DNA of 63,229 nt, counting the filler, from Folioceros fuciformis (lineage: Eukaryota): assembly GCA_049999805.1 (NCBI GenBank). It is 8 parts of 8 records of this genome, joined end to end, with 100 filler letters (N's around TTAATTAATTAA, not from the genome) between each part and the next. Parts side by side here need not be neighbours in the genome. Positions count along the whole stretch, not along the records: positions 44,785 to 51,144 come from JBNGIO010004033.1; 7 more parts are not named here. One strand, written 5' to 3'. This document shows positions 44,785 through 52,187 of the stretch, piece by piece. Below the pieces are notes generated by a model. The model worked only from the letters and a program-made list of their open reading frames with translations. It did no database searches and had not been told where the DNA came from. The position numbers and the translations under genes were made by a program. Numbering within the stretch: the first letter of the stretch is position 1; every line of letters starts with the position of its first letter.

Positions 44785-45640
44785 ACCAGGCCAAGCTGCC
44801 TGCTTGCAGCCTGACCGAGTTGCCGTCTGCCTGGTAGACCCCGTTGGGACCTTAGCCGGGCCCCGGCCTACTAACGCCACGGCTAGCCCAGGCCGACTGG
44901 CCAGTGCCACTAGGCGACCCCCAGCCTGCCGATCCGAGCCACCGCCTTGCTCCAGCCGTGACCAGCCAAGTCGCCCAGCAGAACTTGCCCCCTTCAGCCT
45001 GGCGACTTCGGCCCCGATTCAGCCAGGTCGCCGACTGGCCAGAGGCCAGCCCGTCAACTTGGTTACCCGGATCCACCTCGGCCATCTGGAGCCCCTAGCC
45101 AGCCGCCAGCCTTGGCCTCCCAGACTCCTTGCCGCCCAGCCGGACCGTCCAAGCTGTTTGGCTGGATCCCCTGCAGCCAGTTTGCCAGCCAGCCCTCCTA
45201 CCAGCCTAGTGCCGGCCGCTTGCCCAGAGGCCGCAAGCTGGCTCCTGCCTTCTGAATCCGGCCAGATCCAGGCCACCGCTCCGAATCCCGTCGGTCTGCT
45301 AATCTGGCCACCTGTGCTCTAGTGATCCCTATCCACCCGATGCACCAGGGCAGCATCCCGACACCTCCATCTCCGTCCCCAACTTTCACCAGCACCCCCC
45401 CAGAGGAAACCCCGGCTCACCTCCCATGACCCGTTCTAGGGTTCCTATCCCTCTGTAACTGAGGAACTGGAGCCCGTGAATATCTACCACACACCCTCCT
45501 AGACCCTATCGACTCACCATTAATCTAGCTACTAATCTAACCTAATCTTCTAACCATTGCACTACAGGATTCACTCAGAGATTCCAAAAAAGAGAAATCC
45601 TACCATTTTCCAGGGACCTGTTCATCATGTGGAGTCTACA
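44785..45640 (-). mobile_element. Family D LTR 5' part, inserted in Gypsy RT
   Basis: Minus strand begins TGTAGACTCCACATGATGAACAGG, matching 62567 TGTGGACTCCACATGCTGAACAG; GC-rich GGCTGG/CCAGCC repeats. Confidence 0.75.
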
Positions 45641-48600
45641 GAGGGCTAGCTGTGCTGCTGCATCTAGGTTGAAAGATTTGTTGGGGGACTGTTTCAGGGC
45701 GTCGATTAAGGGTAAGGCAATCTTACTGAATTCCTGGATAAACCGATGGTAGAATCCTGCAAGTCCCAAGAACCCTCTGAGCTGGGTGATGTCTGTGGGT
45801 AATGGCCATGCTGTGACTGCCTGGACCTTGCGGGGGTCCATCCTGATGCCATCTTTCGTGACGATGTGTCCTAGGTAGTCCACTTCTTTGTACATGAAGG
45901 TGCACTTGCTCCTCTTGGCTAACATGTGGTGCTTCCGCAAGAGTAATAGGACAGCTCTAACCAGGTTTATGTGGGTCTCTGCATTTGCAGAATGGATCAG
46001 GATGTTGTCGAGGAACACTTCTATGCCCTGCCCCAAGAACGGCCAGAGGATGTCCTGCATCAGGCACTGGAAGGTTGCTAGTGCGTTGGTGAGCCCCATG
46101 GGCATCACCACCCACTCATAGTGGCCATGGCGGGTTTCGAATGCTATCTTGTGCTCATCCCCTTCCTTAACCTGTATCTGGTAGAAGCCAGAACGTAGGT
46201 CAATCTTGGTAAACCATGTAGAACCATGTAGCTGGTCTAGAATCTCATCGATTCTAGACATTTGGTACATGTTCTTCACTGTGGCCCTGTTTAGACCTCT
46301 ATAATCTATACAGAGCCTCCAGCCACCATTTGGCTTGGCCACTAGCAACACTAGGGCTCCATAAGGTGAGACAGATGGACGCACAAAACTTTGAGCCAAG
46401 AAGGCGTCAACTTGTTTTTTTATCTCTACATTCTCCATGACTGACAATTGGTATGGTGGAATGCTTACACGTTTGGAGCCTGCTACAAGGTCGATGTTAT
46501 GGTCCACTGGTCTCCTAGGAGGAAGCTCTGCAGGGTCAGCAAACAACTCGCTGAATTCTGTCAACAGTGACTTCATTTCTTCAGGAAGGGCTTCTTTCTC
46601 TTGAGCTTGCTTCTCTGCTCGAGTTTTTGTTGTGCCTTCCAATGGGGAGACCTTTTTCAGCTTGGCTATGTACAAGAAGCTGCCGTGGGCAGTTGCTTTA
46701 TGTAATGCTGAGACAGCGACCAAGTGTTTGTCGGGGATGTAGGTTTCTCCTAATAACTTGTATTGCTGGTGGCCCACTTGCAGACTTACTACATTGTTCA
46801 GCTAGTCGATCCTGAGGTGCTGAGAATGGGCAACTAACCAAGGCTTTCCTACGATCATATCGTGGACTAGGCTAGGCATCACAATCAGCTTGAGCTCCTC
46901 AGTGTACCCCCCTGGGAAAGTAAGGTGAGCTTCTACCCACTTCTCTGAGCTAGTATCCTTCTTCCCTAAGGTTGTCACCACTGTGGATAGCTGACTGGAG
47001 TCCTGGATGTGCAGATTTGCTCTATGAGCCGCAACTTCCAAGATATAGTGGTGGCCAGCCCCATTGTCTAGAAGGGCTGTGACCGTGATGCCCTCCAACT
47101 GCATCCTGACCTTGAGGGGGACATGGTGCAGGTTACAAGCATTTAACAAACAGCAACCATTGCAGGCTTTTGGGGCACCTGATGAGGGGTCTCCTTCAAC
47201 TTCCTTGAGGGTGACCGAATGACTGCTGCGAGGGTAGGGGTGGCTGCGAATGGGGCCGCTCCTGGTGGTGTTGCCTGTCTCCTTCAACCAAGCAATGAAC
47301 TCCTTACGGTGTGGACAATTTCAAGAACCATGGTCAGTACCTGTAGAGGTAAAACACATTTTCTTGTCGCTGTAGTACTTCTTCTCCTCTTCTATCAGGA
47401 TCTTGAACACAGGCTTTTTGTTCACCACATTGGATGTCCTCCCAAACTACGGCCTCTGACCCATGGGAGTGCCCAAGTGTTTGTACTTGTTCAGGCCATA
47501 GTTCATGGCAGCTCGGATCTCCTCTGCCAGAGTTCCAGGATTGGTCTGGTTGACGTCTGCACGCAACTCAAATCGGAGTTCGTCAATGAACTTTTCCACC
47601 TTCTGCTCTTCGTGTAGCCTTGGCATATCCAGGGTAAGTTGGAGGAACTTGTCACAATACTCCTGCACACTGCCTTGTTGATATATTTTCCGGAACTGAT
47701 GATACAGCTCCTTCCTGTGGTTGACGGGAAGGAACTGTTCCAGGAAAATTTGGCAGAACAAGGGCCATGAGTACACCGGGGACTCCATTTTGAGGTCCAC
47801 CTGTTTCTCCCGCTGTCGCCACCAGCGATACGCATATCCATCCAAGGACATCACAAAGAATTGAATCTTTTGGAGATCATCCTTCTCACTCGCTACGAGG
47901 TACTTGTCCATCTTATCCAGCCAGTCGTACACGCTTTGGGCTTCCTTAGCTTGGTCGTCGAANNNNNNNNNNNNNNNNNNNNNNNNNNNNNNNNNNNNNN
48001 NNNNNNNNNNNNNNNNNNNNNNNNNNNNNNNNNNNNNNNNNNNNNNNNNNNNNNNNNNNNNNACACGCTTTGGGCTTCCTTAGCTTGGTCGTCGAAAGTG
48101 GTTGTCTTGATCTTCCGCTGGAGCTCTCGGTCTTGTTGTGGTTTGGGCTTGAACAAGTACTCGTGCTCTTTAGGTACTCCTCCTCCTGTCTTACCTCCTT
48201 GTCGCTCCCACTGTTCATACCGCATCAGCTATAGCCTCTTGACCATCGCCTTGATGTCCTTGTCCTCCTTCTCTGCAGGTGTGAGTTCGATTTCGAGCCT
48301 CCTCTTCTCTTCCTCCTCGGCGCTCAACTCCCTGTCTTGGGAAGGCCCCAGGGAAACTCCCTTTGTTTCTCCGATCTCCCTTTTGCTTGCAGTGCCCTCC
48401 ACGGGCATCTCCAACCGACAATGGGGGCCGGGTGGAGGCGTTGGGGGACTGGACGTGGGAGGCAGGGACTATTCCAGCAACTGGAGCACCCCATTGAGTT
48501 GCCTTTCCAGACGGGCCTGTCCCTCCCGCACTTGCGACTCAACCCGAGTCAGCGAGGTTTCTACCTTCTCCAGTTTCAAGTCTTTCCGAGACAGGGGACT

Positions 48601-49666
48601 GTACAGTTCAGCACAGGTGCGTTCTATGCTCTGTCCAGTCTTCCAACCTTTGCAGAAGGTCGCCCGGTGTCGGTTCTCCCTGTCCGGTGCTAACTTGCCT
48701 GGATCGTGGGTGGGTGCAAGTCGGGATCCAGCGTGGGCACCCCGCTTCCTTAGGCGGCCTCTCCTTCGGGCCATAGGCTCACTGAAGTATTCAATGGCGC
48801 CCGTGTCCACTCCCGCCTCCAGCTCCTCATCTTCAGTCGCCAGGAGGGTGTCTGCCCGAGATTCCTGCAGATGCAGGTCGCCCGCCCTTCCGCGGCATCG
48901 CCTGCCAGGTTCTTCCTCCCGCATTTGAGCATGCCGGGTGACTTCTTCTTCTTGCCGGGTTCTCAATCTCAGGCGACAAGGTGGTGTCGTCTCTTCCACT
49001 CAGGACTTTCCCAAGGCCAATTCAAACTCTTCTCTCTGGTCCACAGGAGCATTGATGTTGGGCGACCCAACGGGTAGGCTCCCTGGCTGTGCGCTGCTGT
49101 TTCTCTTCAATCTCTTGCGCCTGACGTTGTGAACTCTTGATGTTGGCCAGGTCGCCACAATTGCCGCTGGCTCTGGCATGAGGCGTCCTACCAACTCTGC
49201 TCCTATTCGATCAGATTCGCATCAGGATTCGGCTCTGATACCAAGTGTCACGCTCTCGATTCCTAGACCTAGCTAGATTTCTAGGGTCGGATCCAGAATT
49301 CATGAAGGAGCTTAGATAGGCTGTCTTTAGTTTCAATGTCCAGGGCCTAAGAAGGCTGGTCTTGGTTTAGGCCAAGAAGGCCCAAATAACAAACTCTAAC
49401 TACTTCCTAAGGTTAATCGGTAATTATCCTAATTATTCTAATTACCCTAGTTTAAGTAACAGTTCTAAATAGCTTGTCTAAGTATACTTTATCTAGCATG
49501 CCTTTTCTCATACCCGTTCGGGTTCACACCGTCCTAATCGGGATTCGGGATTTTTGTGGGTACCCTATCTAGTGCCTTAGACCTAGCAGGGTTCCAGTCG
49601 TCCCTGCGGCGTCATTCTCCTTGCTGGTGATCGTCACAGGCGCTCCTGCTTTTAGCGATCATAACA
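45641..49666 (-). mobile_element. gag-pol: Chromovirus-like Ty3/Gypsy: 5' LTR 49246-49666, PBS 49232-49243, leader ORF and gag, protease, RT
   Basis: PBS TGGTATCAGAGC; gag Q.GSVQEYCDKF; protease ALLDNGAGH; RT WRLCIDYRGLN, KIDLRSGFYQI, VMPMGLTNA, FLDNILIHS. Confidence 0.92.
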
Positions 49667-49940
49667 ACCAGGGTCCTTCATGCATGCAATTGTGAAGATT
49701 TTCAAGGATTTCCTTAGGGATTTCATATAGGTCTTCCTCGATGATTTTTGTGTGTTTGGAGCAAGGAAGGATCATTTGGGCCACCTTCACAAGTGTCTGG
49801 AGCGATGTAGGCAATCCAAATTGCGTCTACATTCGGACAAGTGCTATTTCGGTATGGCTGAAGGTATCTTGTTGGGCCATCGCATCTCGGCGAGGGGAAT
49901 AGAAGTGGATCCTGATAAAGTCAAGATGATTATTATCTTG
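49667..49940 (+). pseudogene. pol: Ty3/Gypsy RT fragment (Athila/Tat-like)
   Basis: PGSFM...IFKDFL.DF.*VFLDDFCVFG...KCLERCRQ.KL.L...KCYFGMAEGILLGHRISARGIEVDPDKV. Confidence 0.9.
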
Positions 49941-51041
49941 ACAATTGCACACATGGAGATCAAAGGTCCACAACCTTTGATCTCCATGTGGATATATTGC
50001 ACCCTGCCTCCTTCATCACCTCTGACGCACAGATAAGGCAGGTGGACGAAGCCTGGATGAAAAGCTTAGTGAGGCAGATGCAGGCTGGCTTTGTTAAGGA
50101 AGGGATCTTGCCCCTCCTCTGTATGGTTGATCCGAAATAAGCAGCAAGCAAGGAAGAGGTTTCTTTGGACAGGATCACGGCGCAGCAGTACCACATGGGA
50201 GTGTTGGGGGGAAACCACTGTTTTGCAGCCATGCAGAAACTTCATCAGATGTTCCCCGCAGAAGATAAATATGAATGGATGGAAGGGCACGTCTATACTG
50301 GCTTGACAGAGGAAGAGATGAAGGTTCTCACCGTCGATCACAATGTATATGCAGACAAGCGGAAAAGGATGGGGTTTATTGAGCAGGTCAAGTACATCCA
50401 CGATGAGCTTGATATTTTTTTTAGGCATCACTCCGGAGAAGAGAAGCCACGATGAAATGGAAGTTCAACCTCTATAGGTTGCTTAGGATGACGGACGAAG
50501 GTGGAGATCCCCACGACATAGACTAGGTGCAAAAGATGGTGGACAGACATACTTTGCCGTATAGGGTTGCAAGGTGCACACCCGTGTTCTGTGGGAGAAT
50601 GTCGATAGGATATTCAGAATGTGGGAACAGGGGGAGCTTCCAGAGGATAAGACATTGGCAACATCTGGAGCAACGAAGAGGGCAAAGGCGAAAAGGAAGA
50701 AAGGAGATTCTACCCTCCAAAGTTCAGTGACCTAGGTGACCGAGGACAGCAGCAGGAGGCCAGGAGCTATGCAGGGCAGGCCATGGAGAGCATTTCAAGG
50801 GGTCCCCAGAGGTGTGAAGGGAGAGGAGATGCTCATAGCGGTGACTCAGAAAGTGATCCAGGGGAAGCTGCAACTACGTGACATGGACACTGAAGTAGGA
50901 AAGAAGAAGAAGATTCATCTCATCCAACATGCCTTCTGACTGGCGATGAAGTGCGACACATTTGAAGAGGCCAAAGAGATGTACCCAAAGCACACAGAAG
51001 ACGGCCATCTCCTCAAATTCCAGACTGCATTCGCCCAAGTG
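49940..51041 (+). pseudogene. Decayed gene with a ParB/Srx-like N-terminal domain and helical C-terminal region
   Basis: TFDLHVDILHP...QIRQVDEAWMKSL...PLLCMVD...VLGGNHCFAAMQKL...VYTGLTEEE...DHN; several stops and a frameshift; ends at a GTAAGT donor-like site at 51042. Confidence 0.6.
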
Positions 51042-51244
51042 GTAAGTATTTGTGTTCTTCTTTCTTGTTACTAATCCGCATCATGCAGTAGGAATGTGCC
51101 GGTAGACCGGTGCACTGCACCTACACTCGGTAGGAGTGCGCGGGNNNNNNNNNNNNNNNNNNNNNNNNNNNNNNNNNNNNNNNNNNNNTTAATTAATTAA
51201 NNNNNNNNNNNNNNNNNNNNNNNNNNNNNNNNNNNNNNNNNNNN

Positions 51245-52187
51245 ACCGAGGCCGAGTACGCAGCCACATCTCTGGCCGCGAAGGAAATACTCTGGATTCA
51301 ACAATTTCTGCATAATCTGCACGAGGACCAGGAACAGCCAACAGAGTTGCAGTGCGACAACCAATCCGCCATTGCCATGACACTAAACCCGGTCCTCCAC
51401 GCAAGGACAAAACACGTTGAAATCCAACACCATTTCATCCGGCAGGTGGTAACCAACAAGCACGTGAAGTTGATATACGTGAGCACAACAGAGAACACGG
51501 ACGATCTTCTAACCAAGGGGCTGGCAAAGCAGCAGCTCGACAAGCACAGAAGGGGAATCGGACTACGTAGCAAAGACGTATATTCTGCACGCATCCAGCA
51601 ATCGGACGAAGGGGGAGCTACAACTCCAACGACTCCGTTACAACACAAGCAGCTCAATTGTCAAGCAAAGGCTGCATCACGGCAACCTTAAACCTCTTCA
51701 TAATCGCGTCCGCCTCCGCCCCCTTCGAGGGAGCCGTAAAACTGACTGCCCCGCGTCCCTTCTTAAAGGGTTCGCGCGCCATCACGGCAGACGGATCGCG
51801 CTTCTCCACGAGTTCACATGTAACCTGTACAGCACAACTCGCTAGCTGCAGCAGCCATCATAGCGCGGACAGCAAGCACAACAACAACTGAAGACACACA
51901 TGCACCAAAGAGGCCATCTGTCGAAGACTGACTGACCAGCCTAGCAGTCTCCTTATCCGCACCGAGGGGGAGTGTTGTGACAATAGCGACACGTTGACGG
52001 AACGGAGACTCGACGAGATTAGGGCACGGTTCGTCTAGTTATGAGAATTAGCGGTTCGCATAGTTACAAACTATAAAACAGTTAATTACAGTTCAACTAA
52101 ATACGGTAACGTGTATATAAGACCCCAAACTTAATCAGACAGTACGCGCATCTTTGCACCATATACATTGCCGCTTTATTGACCACA
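51245..52187 (+). mobile_element. Fourth Copia 3' end: RNase H, PPT GAGGGGGAG, 3' LTR about 51973-52187
   Basis: TEAEYAA, CDNQSAI, HARTKHVEIQHHFIR, DLLTKGL; TGTTG LTR start; LTR end approximate. Confidence 0.85.

What the first reader, a model, noticed from the sequence alone, without database searches (positions are those of the whole stretch)
49940..51047. ParB/Srx-like domain gene in transposon context
Seen: across stops, one frame gives 'LHVDILHP..QIRQVDEAWMKSL..M..GF..PLLCMVD..VLGGNHCFAAM..L..VYTGLTEEE..L..DHN', followed by a helical region ending 'IQHAF..CDTFEEAKEMYP..L.KF' and a GTAAGT donor. Known: this pattern fits the ParB/Sulfiredoxin fold (R..L..PI.V..GxHR..A), which is mostly prokaryotic and often fused to DNA-modifying domains. 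It abuts a Gypsy RT fragment on the same strand. Inference: an intron-bearing, TE-borne ParB-like accessory gene, possibly with a downstream methyltransferase lost at the contig end.
Basis: partly seen in the sequence, partly recalled or inferred. Interest (0 to 1): 0.75.

Follow-up and report, generated by a model that had tools for sequence, protein, structure and literature searches.

The report
Dead ParB-methylase gene fragment
This is a broken, cut-off copy of a repeated eukaryotic gene whose intact relatives join a bacterial-type ParB DNA-handling domain to a DNA methylase, a kind of gene so far reported from giant algal transposons.

Summary
Window 49973-51041 (+) encodes, across three frames, 4 in-frame stops and 2 frameshifts, a protein fragment with 46 relatives at E<=1e-3 in 1.84 billion proteins (best 2.8e-22).

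The first 160 residues model confidently (pLDDT 93) as a ParB/Srx fold (M. xanthus ParB Z 11.7, rmsd 2.0 over 94 aa). No sequence profile (Pfam, NCBIfam, PDB) sees this.

Longer relatives (Chara, a fern, Ginkgo, Saccoglossus, metagenome loci) continue into a beta-class N6_N4 DNA methylase (PF01555). They share an exon end at or next to the window's GTAAGT (51042). The methylase exon is missing here because the contig ends at 51144.

The copy is 5'-truncated at a perfect 18-nt palindrome (49950-49990). It sits beside a separately truncated LTR-retroelement RT piece, which is a private junction and not a Gypsy accessory gene. In the one sample that holds the stretch, over 200 contigs, most 85-95% alike, lie on it, so the family is repeated there. 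Which element carries it, if any, could not be seen.

Closest in print is the ParB-like plus methylase accessory gene of the Ectocarpus Sola1 transposon.

Verdict: a real pseudogene; a new member of a known, barely studied kind.

The parts
49973..50452 (+). ParB/Srx-fold domain of the pseudogene (frame 49973 mod 3), with an in-frame TAA at 50138-50140. It holds the family's conserved GGxH...A and (V)Y(A/T)GLT..E....HN motifs.
   Evidence: (invariant G79; near-invariant H82, A86, G110, L111, N124).
50455..50586 (+). Short stretch read in a second frame after frameshift 1 (near 50452), with an in-frame TAG at 50524-50526. It matches the segment between the ParB domain and the helical region in P0010 and P0003.
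   Evidence: by eye against P0010 and P0003; one contig has an extra letter at 50449, and other contigs differ at 50525.
50580..51041 (+). Helical middle region in a third frame after frameshift 2 (near 50580): a conserved helix, a lysine-rich disordered linker, then a helical bundle ending '...EEAKEMYPKHT...FQTAFAQV'. In-frame stops at 50733 (TAG) and 50937 (TGA).
   Evidence: P0010 32% over 153 aa, E 4e-16; also P0034, P0048, P0002, P0009, P0015. (pLDDT 79.6, with 28-59 disordered); contigs lack 2 letters at 50581/2 and differ at 50937.
51042..51144 (+). Start of an intron (GTAAGT donor) running to the contig end. The methylase exon expected downstream is not in the window.
   Evidence: N linker from 51145; P0010 versus P0049; same exon end; methylase exon after about 440 nt in L001 and L002.
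49950..49990 (.). Perfect 18-nt inverted repeat with a 5-nt loop. Its right arm is the first 18 nt of the ParB-like fragment. This is the 5' truncation and rearrangement junction.
   Evidence: I4, 100% complementary; also I1, 49676-49699 against 49935-49958; exact-match contigs of two runs bridge 49852-50056, and depth steps up at 49982.
49662..49940 (+). Truncated reverse-transcriptase fragment (C-terminal third of RVT_1, one in-frame stop at 49728) of an LTR-retroelement type. It is not part of the ParB-like gene.
45575..48999 (-). Neighbouring retroelement on the other strand with ORFs in the order gag-like, protease-like, RT (Gypsy-type order). It is context only and is interrupted by a 100-N gap at 47963-48062.
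   Evidence: The gag and protease labels come from reading the ORFs, not from a profile search.

Best explanation
Window 49973-51144 is a dead fragment of one member of a repeated, intron-bearing eukaryotic gene family. Intact members encode four parts in order: a variable N-terminal part, a ParB/Srx-fold domain, a helical region with weak likeness to the ParB helix-turn-helix, and a beta-class N6-adenine/N4-cytosine DNA methylase (Pfam N6_N4_Mtase).

Shown: the homology, the fold, the shared exon boundary, the methylase in relatives, the decay of this copy, its 5' truncation at a palindromic junction, its loss of the 3' exon to the contig end, and the presence of many diverged copies in the source sample.

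Inferred: intact members bind DNA through the ParB/HTH half, possibly at palindromic repeat arrays that fill the non-coding parts of related loci, and methylate nearby DNA. The family multiplies as, or on, a DNA-level mobile element, like the ParB-like plus methylase accessory gene of the Ectocarpus Sola1 transposon. The adjacency to the RT fragment is an accident of nested, rearranged repeats. This copy does nothing.
For: Homology:
- 46 hits at E<=1e-3, best 2.8e-22.
- Both halves of the fragment are matched.

Fold:
- pLDDT 93.2, pTM 0.83.
- Foldseek top hit ParB 7bnr_A, E 1.4e-4, prob 1.00. The rows shown are ParB, Noc, KorB, PadC, Srx, SerK and related chains.
- VIA-align gives 7bnk_B Z 11.7, rmsd 2.0 over 94 aa, and Srx at Z about 8.

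Methylase in relatives (PF01555):
- P0034 7.6e-18, P0017 1.1e-10, P0002 4.3e-6.
- P0053 6.6e-14.
- L001 and L002 downstream exons 4.8e-8 and 4.5e-8.
- D-x-P-Y-G motif in P0002 (twice), P0008, P0014 and P0017, and DVPYGFN in L001 and L002.

Exon boundary.

Decay: 4 stops and 2 frameshifts.

Repetition:
- 219, 233 and 138 contigs of runs X1-X3 lie on 49300-51144 at >=85% likeness, most of them 85-95% alike.
- Summed depth is 100-450 over 49982-51035 against about 16-50 on 49672-49981.
- At two of the stops and at both frameshift sites, other contigs read differently.
- Several distinct paralogues per species: Chara 8 rows, Adiantum 4, Saccoglossus 5. Chara forms a starred species clade (SH-aLRT 99), Saccoglossus a clade at 82, and Adiantum groups with two unnamed rows.

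Binding-site idea:
- In L001, 20 matches to CCGATGTTTGGATCGG against 0.01 expected.
- In L002, 27 matches (about 17 palindromic sites) to GAGCGAGAC-NN-GTMTCG against 0.04 expected.
- By my reading of the ORF maps, all lie outside the coding exons.
- HTH_ParB scores below threshold in 4 of 29 members.

Precedent: Ectocarpus Sola1-1_Ec32 (PMC12477816, passages); phage ParB-fold plus N6_N4 methylase fusions (10.1101/2025.10.10.680097, passages).
Against: - No sequence profile supports ParB. Pfam, NCBIfam and PDB sequences gave nothing for the window.
- Of 39 family members, only sub-threshold hits appeared: DUF6551 in 4, ddrB-ParB in 1, PF08775 in 1.
- hhalign of the family profile against phage P1 ParB gave probability 1.4%. 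The fold call therefore rests on a predicted model.
- The conserved GGxH lacks the arginines of ParB box II in the window, so nucleotide binding is uncertain.
- The methylase is not in the window. Its motif IV is D-x-P-Y rather than D/N/S-P-P-Y, and it is degenerate in the animal and Ginkgo members, so activity is unproven.
- No transposase, terminal repeat or target duplication was seen anywhere, so the carrier element is unknown.
- Contig depth is not a copy number. All three holding runs are one sample, probably the assembly's own.
- The palindrome arrays are in a different clade of the family. The window shows at most one doubtful unit.
Confidence: 0.7

Rival explanations
1. Accessory gene of a Gypsy retrotransposon. 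The ParB-like gene would be part of the same element as the RT just upstream.
For: Same strand and immediate adjacency. Retrotransposons are known to capture methylases (10.64898/2026.05.21.726589, Results part 1 and passages).
Against: - The RT piece is only the last third of RVT_1 and stops mid-domain.
- The junction is an 18-nt perfect palindrome with a second inverted segment beside it.
- Depth of look-alike contigs steps up about 5-fold at 49982.
- 0 of 29 relatives scanned show RT, integrase or protease.
- L001 and L002 have their own upstream exon and no RT.
- An intron shared between copies does not fit passage through spliced RNA.
- The methylase captured by retroelements in that preprint has an N-P-P motif and is reported absent as DAM-LTR from Streptophyta and Metazoa.
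Confidence: 0.04
2. Ordinary host gene family, not mobile, that expanded by duplication. This locus would be one decayed paralogue caught in a repeat-rich region. Intact members might serve host chromatin methylation, as the beta-class N4-cytosine methylases MpDN4MT1a/b do in Marchantia sperm.
For: - Conserved intron position across distant clades.
- Species-specific clades in the tree.
- No TE protein domain in any relative.
- The named plant holders among the 30 proteins looked up are Chara, a fern and Ginkgo. From recall, these all have swimming sperm.
Against: - Hundreds of diverged contigs in one sample and many fragmentary paralogues per genome look like repeat dynamics.
- MpDN4MT1 has TSPPY, and the word ParB does not occur in that paper's text (10.1101/2021.02.12.428880, passages).
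- The same architecture is TE-borne in Ectocarpus.
Confidence: 0.2
3. Remnant of an integrated virus (giant virus or phage-like DNA) that carried a ParB-methylase fusion, as many prophages do.
For: ParB-fold plus N6_N4 methylase fusions are enriched in phages and prophages. An ESM Atlas feature hit at 0.90 is a viral 'ParB N-terminal domain' cluster (a lead only).
Against: - The scan of IMG/VR with the A2 profile found 64 pattern matches and 0 relatives.
- tblastn of P0008 against 50,697 phage records found no match.
- The genes have spliceosomal-type introns at conserved places, and the named relatives are all eukaryotic.
Confidence: 0.04

Closest known systems
ParB-like plus DNA methyltransferase accessory gene of the 21.5-kb Sola1-1_Ec32 DNA transposon of Ectocarpus (PMC12477816; passages read)
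   Same: [quoted passage not shown] The authors propose that it binds and modifies its own element.
   Different: I could not obtain that 1104-aa protein, so homology to this family is untested. Here no transposase or element ends are known. The hosts are streptophytes and marine invertebrates rather than a brown alga. The window copy is a pseudogene without the methylase part.
Phage and prophage ParB-CTPase-fold plus N6_N4_Mtase (PF01555) fusion proteins (10.1101/2025.10.10.680097; passages read)
   Same: The same two domains, and PF01555 is the same Pfam family as in the relatives here. The domain order was seen for the relatives here, not for the phage proteins.
   Different: No detectable sequence match to phage records. 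The eukaryotic family has introns, a long helical middle region, GGxH in place of the arginine-rich box II, and D-x-P-Y in place of D-P-P-Y.
Chromosomal and plasmid ParB, Noc, KorB and PadC N-terminal domains (PDB 7bnk, 6sdk, 7ng0, 7bm8, 8qa8, 6ryk)
   Same: Best structural matches: Z 9.5-11.7, rmsd about 2-3 over about 93-97 aa for most (PadC: rmsd 6.2 over 113 aa).
   Different: 8-20% identity. No Pfam ParBc hit. No sign of a ParA partner or a C-terminal dimerisation domain. The CTP-binding arginines are not conserved.
Sulfiredoxin (PDB 6ky4, 2rii, 1xw3)
   Same: Same fold core (Z 7.2-8.0). From recall, its GGCH(R) motif resembles the family's GGxH.
   Different: Srx is a small stand-alone redox enzyme with a catalytic cysteine. 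Here the position is N, G, T, Q or D, and the domain is fused to DNA-related parts.
Plavaka accessory gene PAG3 of the red alga Bostrychia (ParB-like plus 2OG oxygenase) with adjacent arrays of inverted repeats (10.1101/2025.02.11.637652; one passage read)
   Same: A ParB-like N domain on a TE accessory protein. Arrays of inverted repeats lie next to the gene, as in L001, L002, L003 and L005 here.
   Different: The enzymatic partner is an oxygenase, not a methylase. Homology was not tested.
Retrotransposon-borne DAM methylases (10.64898/2026.05.21.726589) and Marchantia MpDN4MT1 (10.1101/2021.02.12.428880)
   Same: Prokaryote-type DNA methylases living in eukaryotic genomes. The first is TE-borne; the second is a beta-class enzyme in a streptophyte.
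   Different: The DAM domain has N-P-P and sits in RT-bearing polyproteins. MpDN4MT1 has TSPPY. The word ParB does not occur in the MpDN4MT1 text; the listing shows no ParB in the DAM preprint.

Membership tests
ParB/Srx fold superfamily (ParB N-terminal domain) | Three-dimensional fold of the ParB N domain / sulfiredoxin | tested here: met
   AF2 model pLDDT 93.2. Foldseek top rows are ParB/Noc, prob 1.00, E 1.4e-4. VIA-align gives Z 11.7, rmsd 2.0 over 94 aa, and 25 chains at Z>=8 (the 15 listed in the table at Z>=8 are ParB/Noc/KorB/PadC/pNOB8 ParB/Srx chains). This is a predicted model, not a solved one.
ParB/Srx fold superfamily (ParB N-terminal domain) | Significant match to a curated ParB-type sequence profile (PF02195 or clan members) | tested here: not met
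   Window: no ParB family at E<=1. Of 39 family members at E<=10: DUF6551 in 4 (best 0.034), ddrB-ParB in 1 (0.0038), PF08775 in 1 (0.16), none above the cut-off. The PDB profile search gave nothing. hhalign against P1 ParB gave probability 1.4%.
ParB/Srx fold superfamily (ParB N-terminal domain) | Box II / P-motif (GxRR in ParB, GCHR in Srx; both motifs recalled) at the strand-helix junction | tested here: inconclusive
   The family has invariant G79 and near-invariant H82 in 'GGNH' at the strand 75-79 / helix 81-93 junction. The window has no arginine there. Chara (GGGHCREA) and the P0015 clade (GGNHGARAK) have one 2-3 residues later. No residue-level structural alignment was printed.
ParB-fold plus N6_N4 DNA methylase fusion proteins (phage type; algal TE accessory type) | C-terminal PF01555 methylase on the same protein | not testable with these tools
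   The contig ends 103 nt into the intron, and no methylase fragment lies elsewhere in the window. In relatives the feature is met: P0002, P0017, P0034, P0053, L001 and L002.
ParB-fold plus N6_N4 DNA methylase fusion proteins (phage type; algal TE accessory type) | Canonical motif IV (D/N/S)-P-P-(Y/F/W) (recalled) | tested here: not met
   Relatives read DFPYGF, DLPYGF, DAPYGF and DVPYGF. Ginkgo reads DIPHGY, and Saccoglossus DTPQNW and DVPDEW. The window itself lacks this part.
Transposon accessory gene (carried inside a defined mobile element) | Location between element termini, together with a transposase or RT; copies sharing ends | not testable with these tools
   No genome is held for the window, and the look-up of encoding contigs is closed. 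Multi-copy state is shown only by contigs of one sample. The 5-kb related loci hold only the gene itself.
Gypsy/Ty3 retrotransposon accessory domain | Same transcription unit as an intact pol, between LTRs | tested here: not met
   The RT is truncated at both ends. The junction is palindromic. Depth is discontinuous at 49982. No RT appears in 29 relatives.

The most novel reading that the evidence does not exclude
The family is a eukaryotic counterpart of a ParB/parS system welded to a DNA methylase. It would be a self-recognising epigenetic module of an undescribed DNA-level mobile element in streptophytes and marine invertebrates. The ParB/HTH half would load on arrays of about 40-bp palindromes (outer GAATG...CATTC, with an inner core that differs between paralogous loci) that fill the element's own introns and flanks. 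The methylase would then mark that DNA with 6mA or 4mC. The single 'GGAATGTG-CCGGTAGACCGG' unit at 51091-51111, at the start of the window's intron, would be a decayed site of this kind.
Probability: 0.2. Interest if true: 0.8.

Novelty: new member of a known kind. Interest (0 to 1): 0.5.

Why it matters
ParB-like plus methylase proteins have only recently been pointed out as a possible new class of transposon accessory proteins in algae (PMC12477816). This finding shows a related architecture in Chara, a fern, Ginkgo, a hemichordate, a nemertean, an annelid and an oyster. Its ParB domain is so diverged that no curated profile detects it.

If the intact members really bind palindrome arrays in their own loci and methylate them, they would be a tractable example of a eukaryotic selfish element that writes its own epigenetic mark. 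They would also be a possible source of 6mA or 4mC signals in plant and animal genomes.

The window's own copy has no function. Its value is as a pointer to the family.

Tried and rejected
- Sequence-level tests for ParB gave nothing. I tried Pfam and NCBIfam on the window pieces, phmmer and a family profile against PDB sequences, Pfam at E<=10 on all 39 members of A1 (sub-threshold hints only), and hhalign of A1 against phage P1 ParB (probability 1.4%).
- The word-indexed protein searches found nothing with the single sequence. They also found nothing with A1 in 'longer' mode, which searched only proteins of 1181-3370 aa and missed even P0002.
- The IMG/VR scan with A2 found 0 relatives. tblastn of P0008 against phages found no match.
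- The helical tail (model pLDDT 79.6) found no fold. The best Foldseek E was 2.8, and the best VIA-align wide Z was 5.3, among designed helical proteins. This is uninformative and is not evidence of a new fold.
- The methylase exon of L001 against PDB sequences gave only M.RsrI at E 0.13.
- No whole genome is held.
- No RNA holder is listed for the stretch, so nothing can be said on expression.
- A script looking for GAATG...CATTC palindromic units found none in the 63-kb window. The same script found only 3 in L002 and 2 in L003, so it is insensitive.
- GGAATGTG occurs 4 times on both strands in the window, about what chance gives. The single unit at 51091 is therefore only a lead.
- The ESM Atlas pointed to fungal DUF3723 clusters (0.91, 159 shared features). 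Pfam DUF3723 was not among the 25 families shown of 30, and no paper holds both 'DUF3723' and 'ParB'.
- The earlier findings of this scan gave nothing.
- Accession AP001918 is not in the collections.
Full report
**1. What is in the sequence**

The window is a chain of short contigs joined by 44N-TTAATTAATTAA-44N linkers. The finding's contig runs from 44785 to 51144, with a 100-N scaffold gap at 47963-48062. GC content is 49%. No whole genome is held for the window.

The reading path uses three frames:
- 49973-50452, with a TAA at 50138.
- 50455 to about 50586, with a TAG at 50524.
- About 50580 to 51041, with a TAG at 50733 and a TGA at 50937.

That makes four in-frame stops and two frameshifts in about 1.07 kb, so this is a pseudogene. 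GTAAGT follows at 51042, and the contig ends 103 nt later.

**2. It is a real gene family**

- phmmer of the 179-residue read-through (X at stops) against 1.84 billion representative proteins gave 46 hits at E<=1e-3 and 6 at E<=1e-10, best 2.8e-22. One hit, P0024, is a repeat protein with 9 short stretches, and I dropped it as spurious.
- tblastn of the other 46 proteins then held back onto the window hits only 49970-50449 and 50577-51050. There is no second copy and no methylase fragment elsewhere in the 63 kb. The closest relative is P0010, from an unnamed contig: 45% over 71 aa and 32% over 153 aa.
- Of the 30 hits looked up by exact sequence, the named ones are as follows:
  - Chara braunii: 7 representatives plus 1 member
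  - Adiantum nelumboides: 4
  - Ginkgo biloba: 2
  - Saccoglossus kowalevskii: 3 representatives plus members
  - Lineus longissimus: 1
  - Owenia fusiformis: 1
- The 16 other hits were not looked up.
- A profile search added 29 proteins. Most belong to one clade from unnamed assemblies, and one is from the oyster Saccostrea cucullata.

**3. The N-terminal half has a ParB/Srx fold**

No sequence profile sees this:
- Pfam, NCBIfam and PDB sequences gave nothing for the window.
- A family profile against PDB gave nothing.
- Pfam at E<=10 on all 39 members of alignment A1 gave only sub-threshold hints: DUF6551 in 4, ddrB-ParB in 1, PF08775 in 1.
- hhalign against phage P1 ParB gave a probability of 1.4%.

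The predicted structure is clear:
- With A1 as the alignment, AlphaFold2 gave pLDDT 93.2 and pTM 0.83.
- The Foldseek rows shown are ParB, Noc, KorB, PadC, sulfiredoxin, SerK and related chains. The best is 7bnr_A, E 1.4e-4, prob 1.00.
- VIA-align gave M. xanthus ParB Z 11.7, rmsd 2.0 over 94 residues. Twenty-five chains scored Z>=8, and sulfiredoxin scored about 8.

The family's conserved residues sit where ParB has box II and the following helix-strand unit. These are the invariant G79 and the near-invariant H82, A86, G110, L111 and N124, forming 'GGxH...A' and 'VYxGLT..E....HN'. The box II arginines are missing in the window copy. That comparison with ParB and Srx motifs comes from recall.

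**4. The rest of the gene**

The second half of the fragment matches the relatives' middle region. It consists of a conserved helix ('...W..V..IF.MW..GE'), a lysine-rich linker, and a helical bundle ending '...EEAKEMYP..T....L..F'.
- Its model has pLDDT 79.6, with residues 28-59 disordered.
- It found no fold.
- The only hint is Pfam HTH_ParB below threshold, in 4 of 29 members. The best is 8.6e-4, or 19.9 bits against a cut-off of 22.6, in L001.

Longer relatives continue into a beta-class DNA methylase. PF01555 passes its cut-off in P0034 (65.7 bits), P0017, P0002, P0053 and the downstream exons of L001 and L002. Motif IV comes before motif I, and motif IV is unusual:
- It reads D-(F/L/A/V)-P-Y-G-F.
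- It is degenerate in Ginkgo (DIPHGY) and Saccoglossus (DTPQNW, DVPDEW).
- Activity is therefore not assured.

**5. The intron**

- P0010 and P0049 are 90%-identical cluster mates. They are the same up to '...FQLQFNGV' and then differ. One reads 'VSS...', as a GTAAGT-type read-through would. The other continues with sequence that matches other family members.
- The 13 members of the P0015 clade all diverge after '...EKL..QV'.
- In loci L001 and L002, the ParB/helical ORF ends at that point, and the methylase ORF starts about 440 nt downstream.
- The window's '...FQTAFAQV' followed by GTAAGT is at the same place. The donor is therefore credible, and the methylase exon should lie beyond the contig end.

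**6. Context and the RT fragment**

- Positions 49662-49940 encode the last third of an RT. Pfam RVT_1 matches profile positions 151-204 of 205 at E 1.7e-4, below the cut-off. It is 30% identical, E 5e-8, to residues 242-329 of the pol ORF of the neighbouring element.
- That neighbour lies on the other strand at 45575-48999. Its ORFs run in the order gag-like, protease-like, RT.
- The RT piece breaks off at about 49940.
- Positions 49935-49958 are an 83% inverted copy of 49676-49699.
- Positions 49950-49967 are a perfect inverted copy of 49973-49990, the first 18 nt of the ParB-like piece.
- Exact-match contigs from two runs bridge 49852-50056, so the junction is not peculiar to the assembly given. 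Those runs are probably from the same sample as the assembly.
- No relative's upstream sequence matches anything before 49970, so the gene is 5'-truncated here.

**7. Repetition**

Only one sample holds the stretch: runs X1-X3, organism coded.
- When laid at >=85% likeness, 219, 233 and 138 contigs lie on 49300-51144. Most are 85-95% alike.
- Summed depth is 100-450 across 49982-51035. It is about 16-50 on 49672-49981, about 38-73 in the first 60 nt of the intron, and about 3-5 after that.
- Up to 10 different contigs cover a single position.
- At the stops at 50524 and 50937, nearly all other contigs read another letter.
- At the two frameshift places, some contigs have one letter more (50449) or two fewer (50581/2). 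The defects are therefore private to this copy or to a few copies.
- The other two stops are not in the part of the table that was shown.
- Contig depth is not a copy number and the sample is single. I take this as good evidence for a repeated, diverged family, and no more.
- A quick ML tree of 71 domain rows (rows under 110 aa dropped) shows species-specific clusters: Chara 8 of 8 at SH-aLRT 99, Ginkgo at 100, Saccoglossus at 82, and Adiantum 4 rows with 2 unnamed. The window sits on a long branch near the unnamed P0003 and P0004. Its placement is unsure.

**8. A lead on mechanism from related loci**

- In L001 the motif CCGATGTTTGGATCGG (<=2 mismatches) occurs 20 times in both orientations, against 0.01 expected.
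- In L002 GAGCGAGAC-NN-GTMTCG occurs 27 times, at about 17 palindromic sites, against 0.04 expected.
- L003 and L005 carry variants of the L002 unit.
- The units are about 40-bp palindromes with outer GAATG...CATTC arms.
- By my reading of the ORF maps, all lie upstream, in the two introns, or downstream of the gene, and none lies in coding sequence.
- The window's intron start has one 'GGAATGTG CCGGT-AG-ACCGG' (51091-51111). With a single instance and a post-hoc comparison, it is only a lead.

**9. Comparison with what is known**

- The Ectocarpus TE paper describes a 1104-aa ParB-like plus N4C/N6A methylase gene on the giant Sola1-1_Ec32 transposon. It calls such proteins a possible new class of TE accessory proteins, citing Iyer et al. 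2011 and Petroll et al. 2025 (PMC12477816, passages and reference list). Iyer 2011 is not in the library and I did not read it.
- ParB-fold plus N6_N4 methylase fusions are common in phages and prophages (10.1101/2025.10.10.680097, passages).
- Iyer et al. 2016 list other ParB-associated eukaryotic methylase clades, namely chlorophyte Dam with a ParB-type HTH and a haptophyte clade (PMC4738411, passages).
- The retrotransposon DAM methylases (10.64898/2026.05.21.726589, abstract, Results part 1 and passages) and Marchantia MpDN4MT1 (10.1101/2021.02.12.428880, passages) are different enzymes.
- Searches for 'ParB' with 'Chara braunii' found 1 unrelated paper. Searches for 'ParB' with 'N4-methylcytosine', 'transposon' and 'eukaryot' found 2 papers, of which only the Ectocarpus one is relevant. 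I found no description of this streptophyte and animal family in the library searched. Supplements were not consulted.

**10. Verdict**

The Gypsy link is not.

The object in the window is a functionless fragment. The family it belongs to is a new member of a recently recognised and little-studied kind. Whether it is mobile, and on what element, is the main open question.

Noticed in passing
L001 62-392, 1232-1839, 2996-3418, 4637-4927; L002 205-604, 1746-2021, 3220-3463, 4700-4911; also L003 and L005: The non-coding parts of the related metagenome loci are packed with palindromic units of about 40 bp. The units have outer GAATG...CATTC arms, and the inner core differs between paralogous loci: CCGATGTTTGGATCGG in L001, and GAGCGAGAC-NN-GTCTCGCTC in L002, L003 and L005. 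There are 20 and 27 matches against 0.01 and 0.04 expected. These are candidate binding sites for the ParB/HTH half.
   Followed up: partly
window 51091-51125: At the start of the intron lies 'GGAATGTG' followed by two overlapping short palindromes (CCGGT-AG-ACCGG and GGTGCA-C-TGCACC). It shares GGAATGTGC and AGACCGGT with an L003 unit. It is a single instance cut by the contig end, and chance is not excluded.
   Followed up: partly
window 49950-49990 and 49676-49699 / 49935-49958: A perfect 18-nt hairpin-like palindrome and a second 24-nt inverted segment lie at the RT / ParB-like junction. The pattern looks like fold-back or template-switch repair. Exact contigs of two runs reproduce it.
   Followed up: partly
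window 50141-50452 (ESM Atlas): Among the nearest feature-space clusters are fungal DUF3723 proteins (score 0.91, 159 of 256 shared features). From recall, DUF3723 is a common accessory gene of Starship giant transposons. Pfam DUF3723 was not among the 25 families shown of 30, and no paper holds both 'DUF3723' and 'ParB'. This is a possible distant ParB-like link and an untested lead.
   Followed up: partly
run X3 laid on window 49300-51144: X3 shows C>T at full depth at many places (61 C>T of its listed changes) and T-rich loose ends, as a bisulfite- or enzyme-converted library would. If so, raw reads could show the methylation state of these repeats.
   Followed up: no
window 49231-49243 (- strand) and 49248-49655: On the minus strand, TGGTATCAGAGCC lies just after the gag-side end of the neighbouring retroelement. 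From recall, this is the usual initiator-tRNA-Met primer-binding site of plant LTR elements. The 400 nt above it would then be that element's 5' LTR, inserted into the plus-strand RT.
   Followed up: no
window 51245-51691 (next contig): An open frame reads 'TEAEYAATSLAAKEILWIQQFL...TKHVEIQHHFIRQ', which looks like the RNase H end of a Copia-type pol (recalled; not searched). The whole window is rich in LTR-retroelement pieces.
   Followed up: no
L001 138-1238, L002 403-1782; P0050 and P0053 N-termini: The relatives have a further conserved N-terminal region ('..KKKWYVRNGQD...PVLYVT..' in L001 and L002, '..RSWWLEEDGPKIYVYV..' in Saccoglossus) with no Pfam match. It is absent from the window copy.
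   Followed up: no
joints 50558/50580 to 50671: Some look-alike DNA contigs lack 90-112 nt of the lysine-rich linker, and others have different sequence before 50671. The linker varies in length among copies.
   Followed up: no
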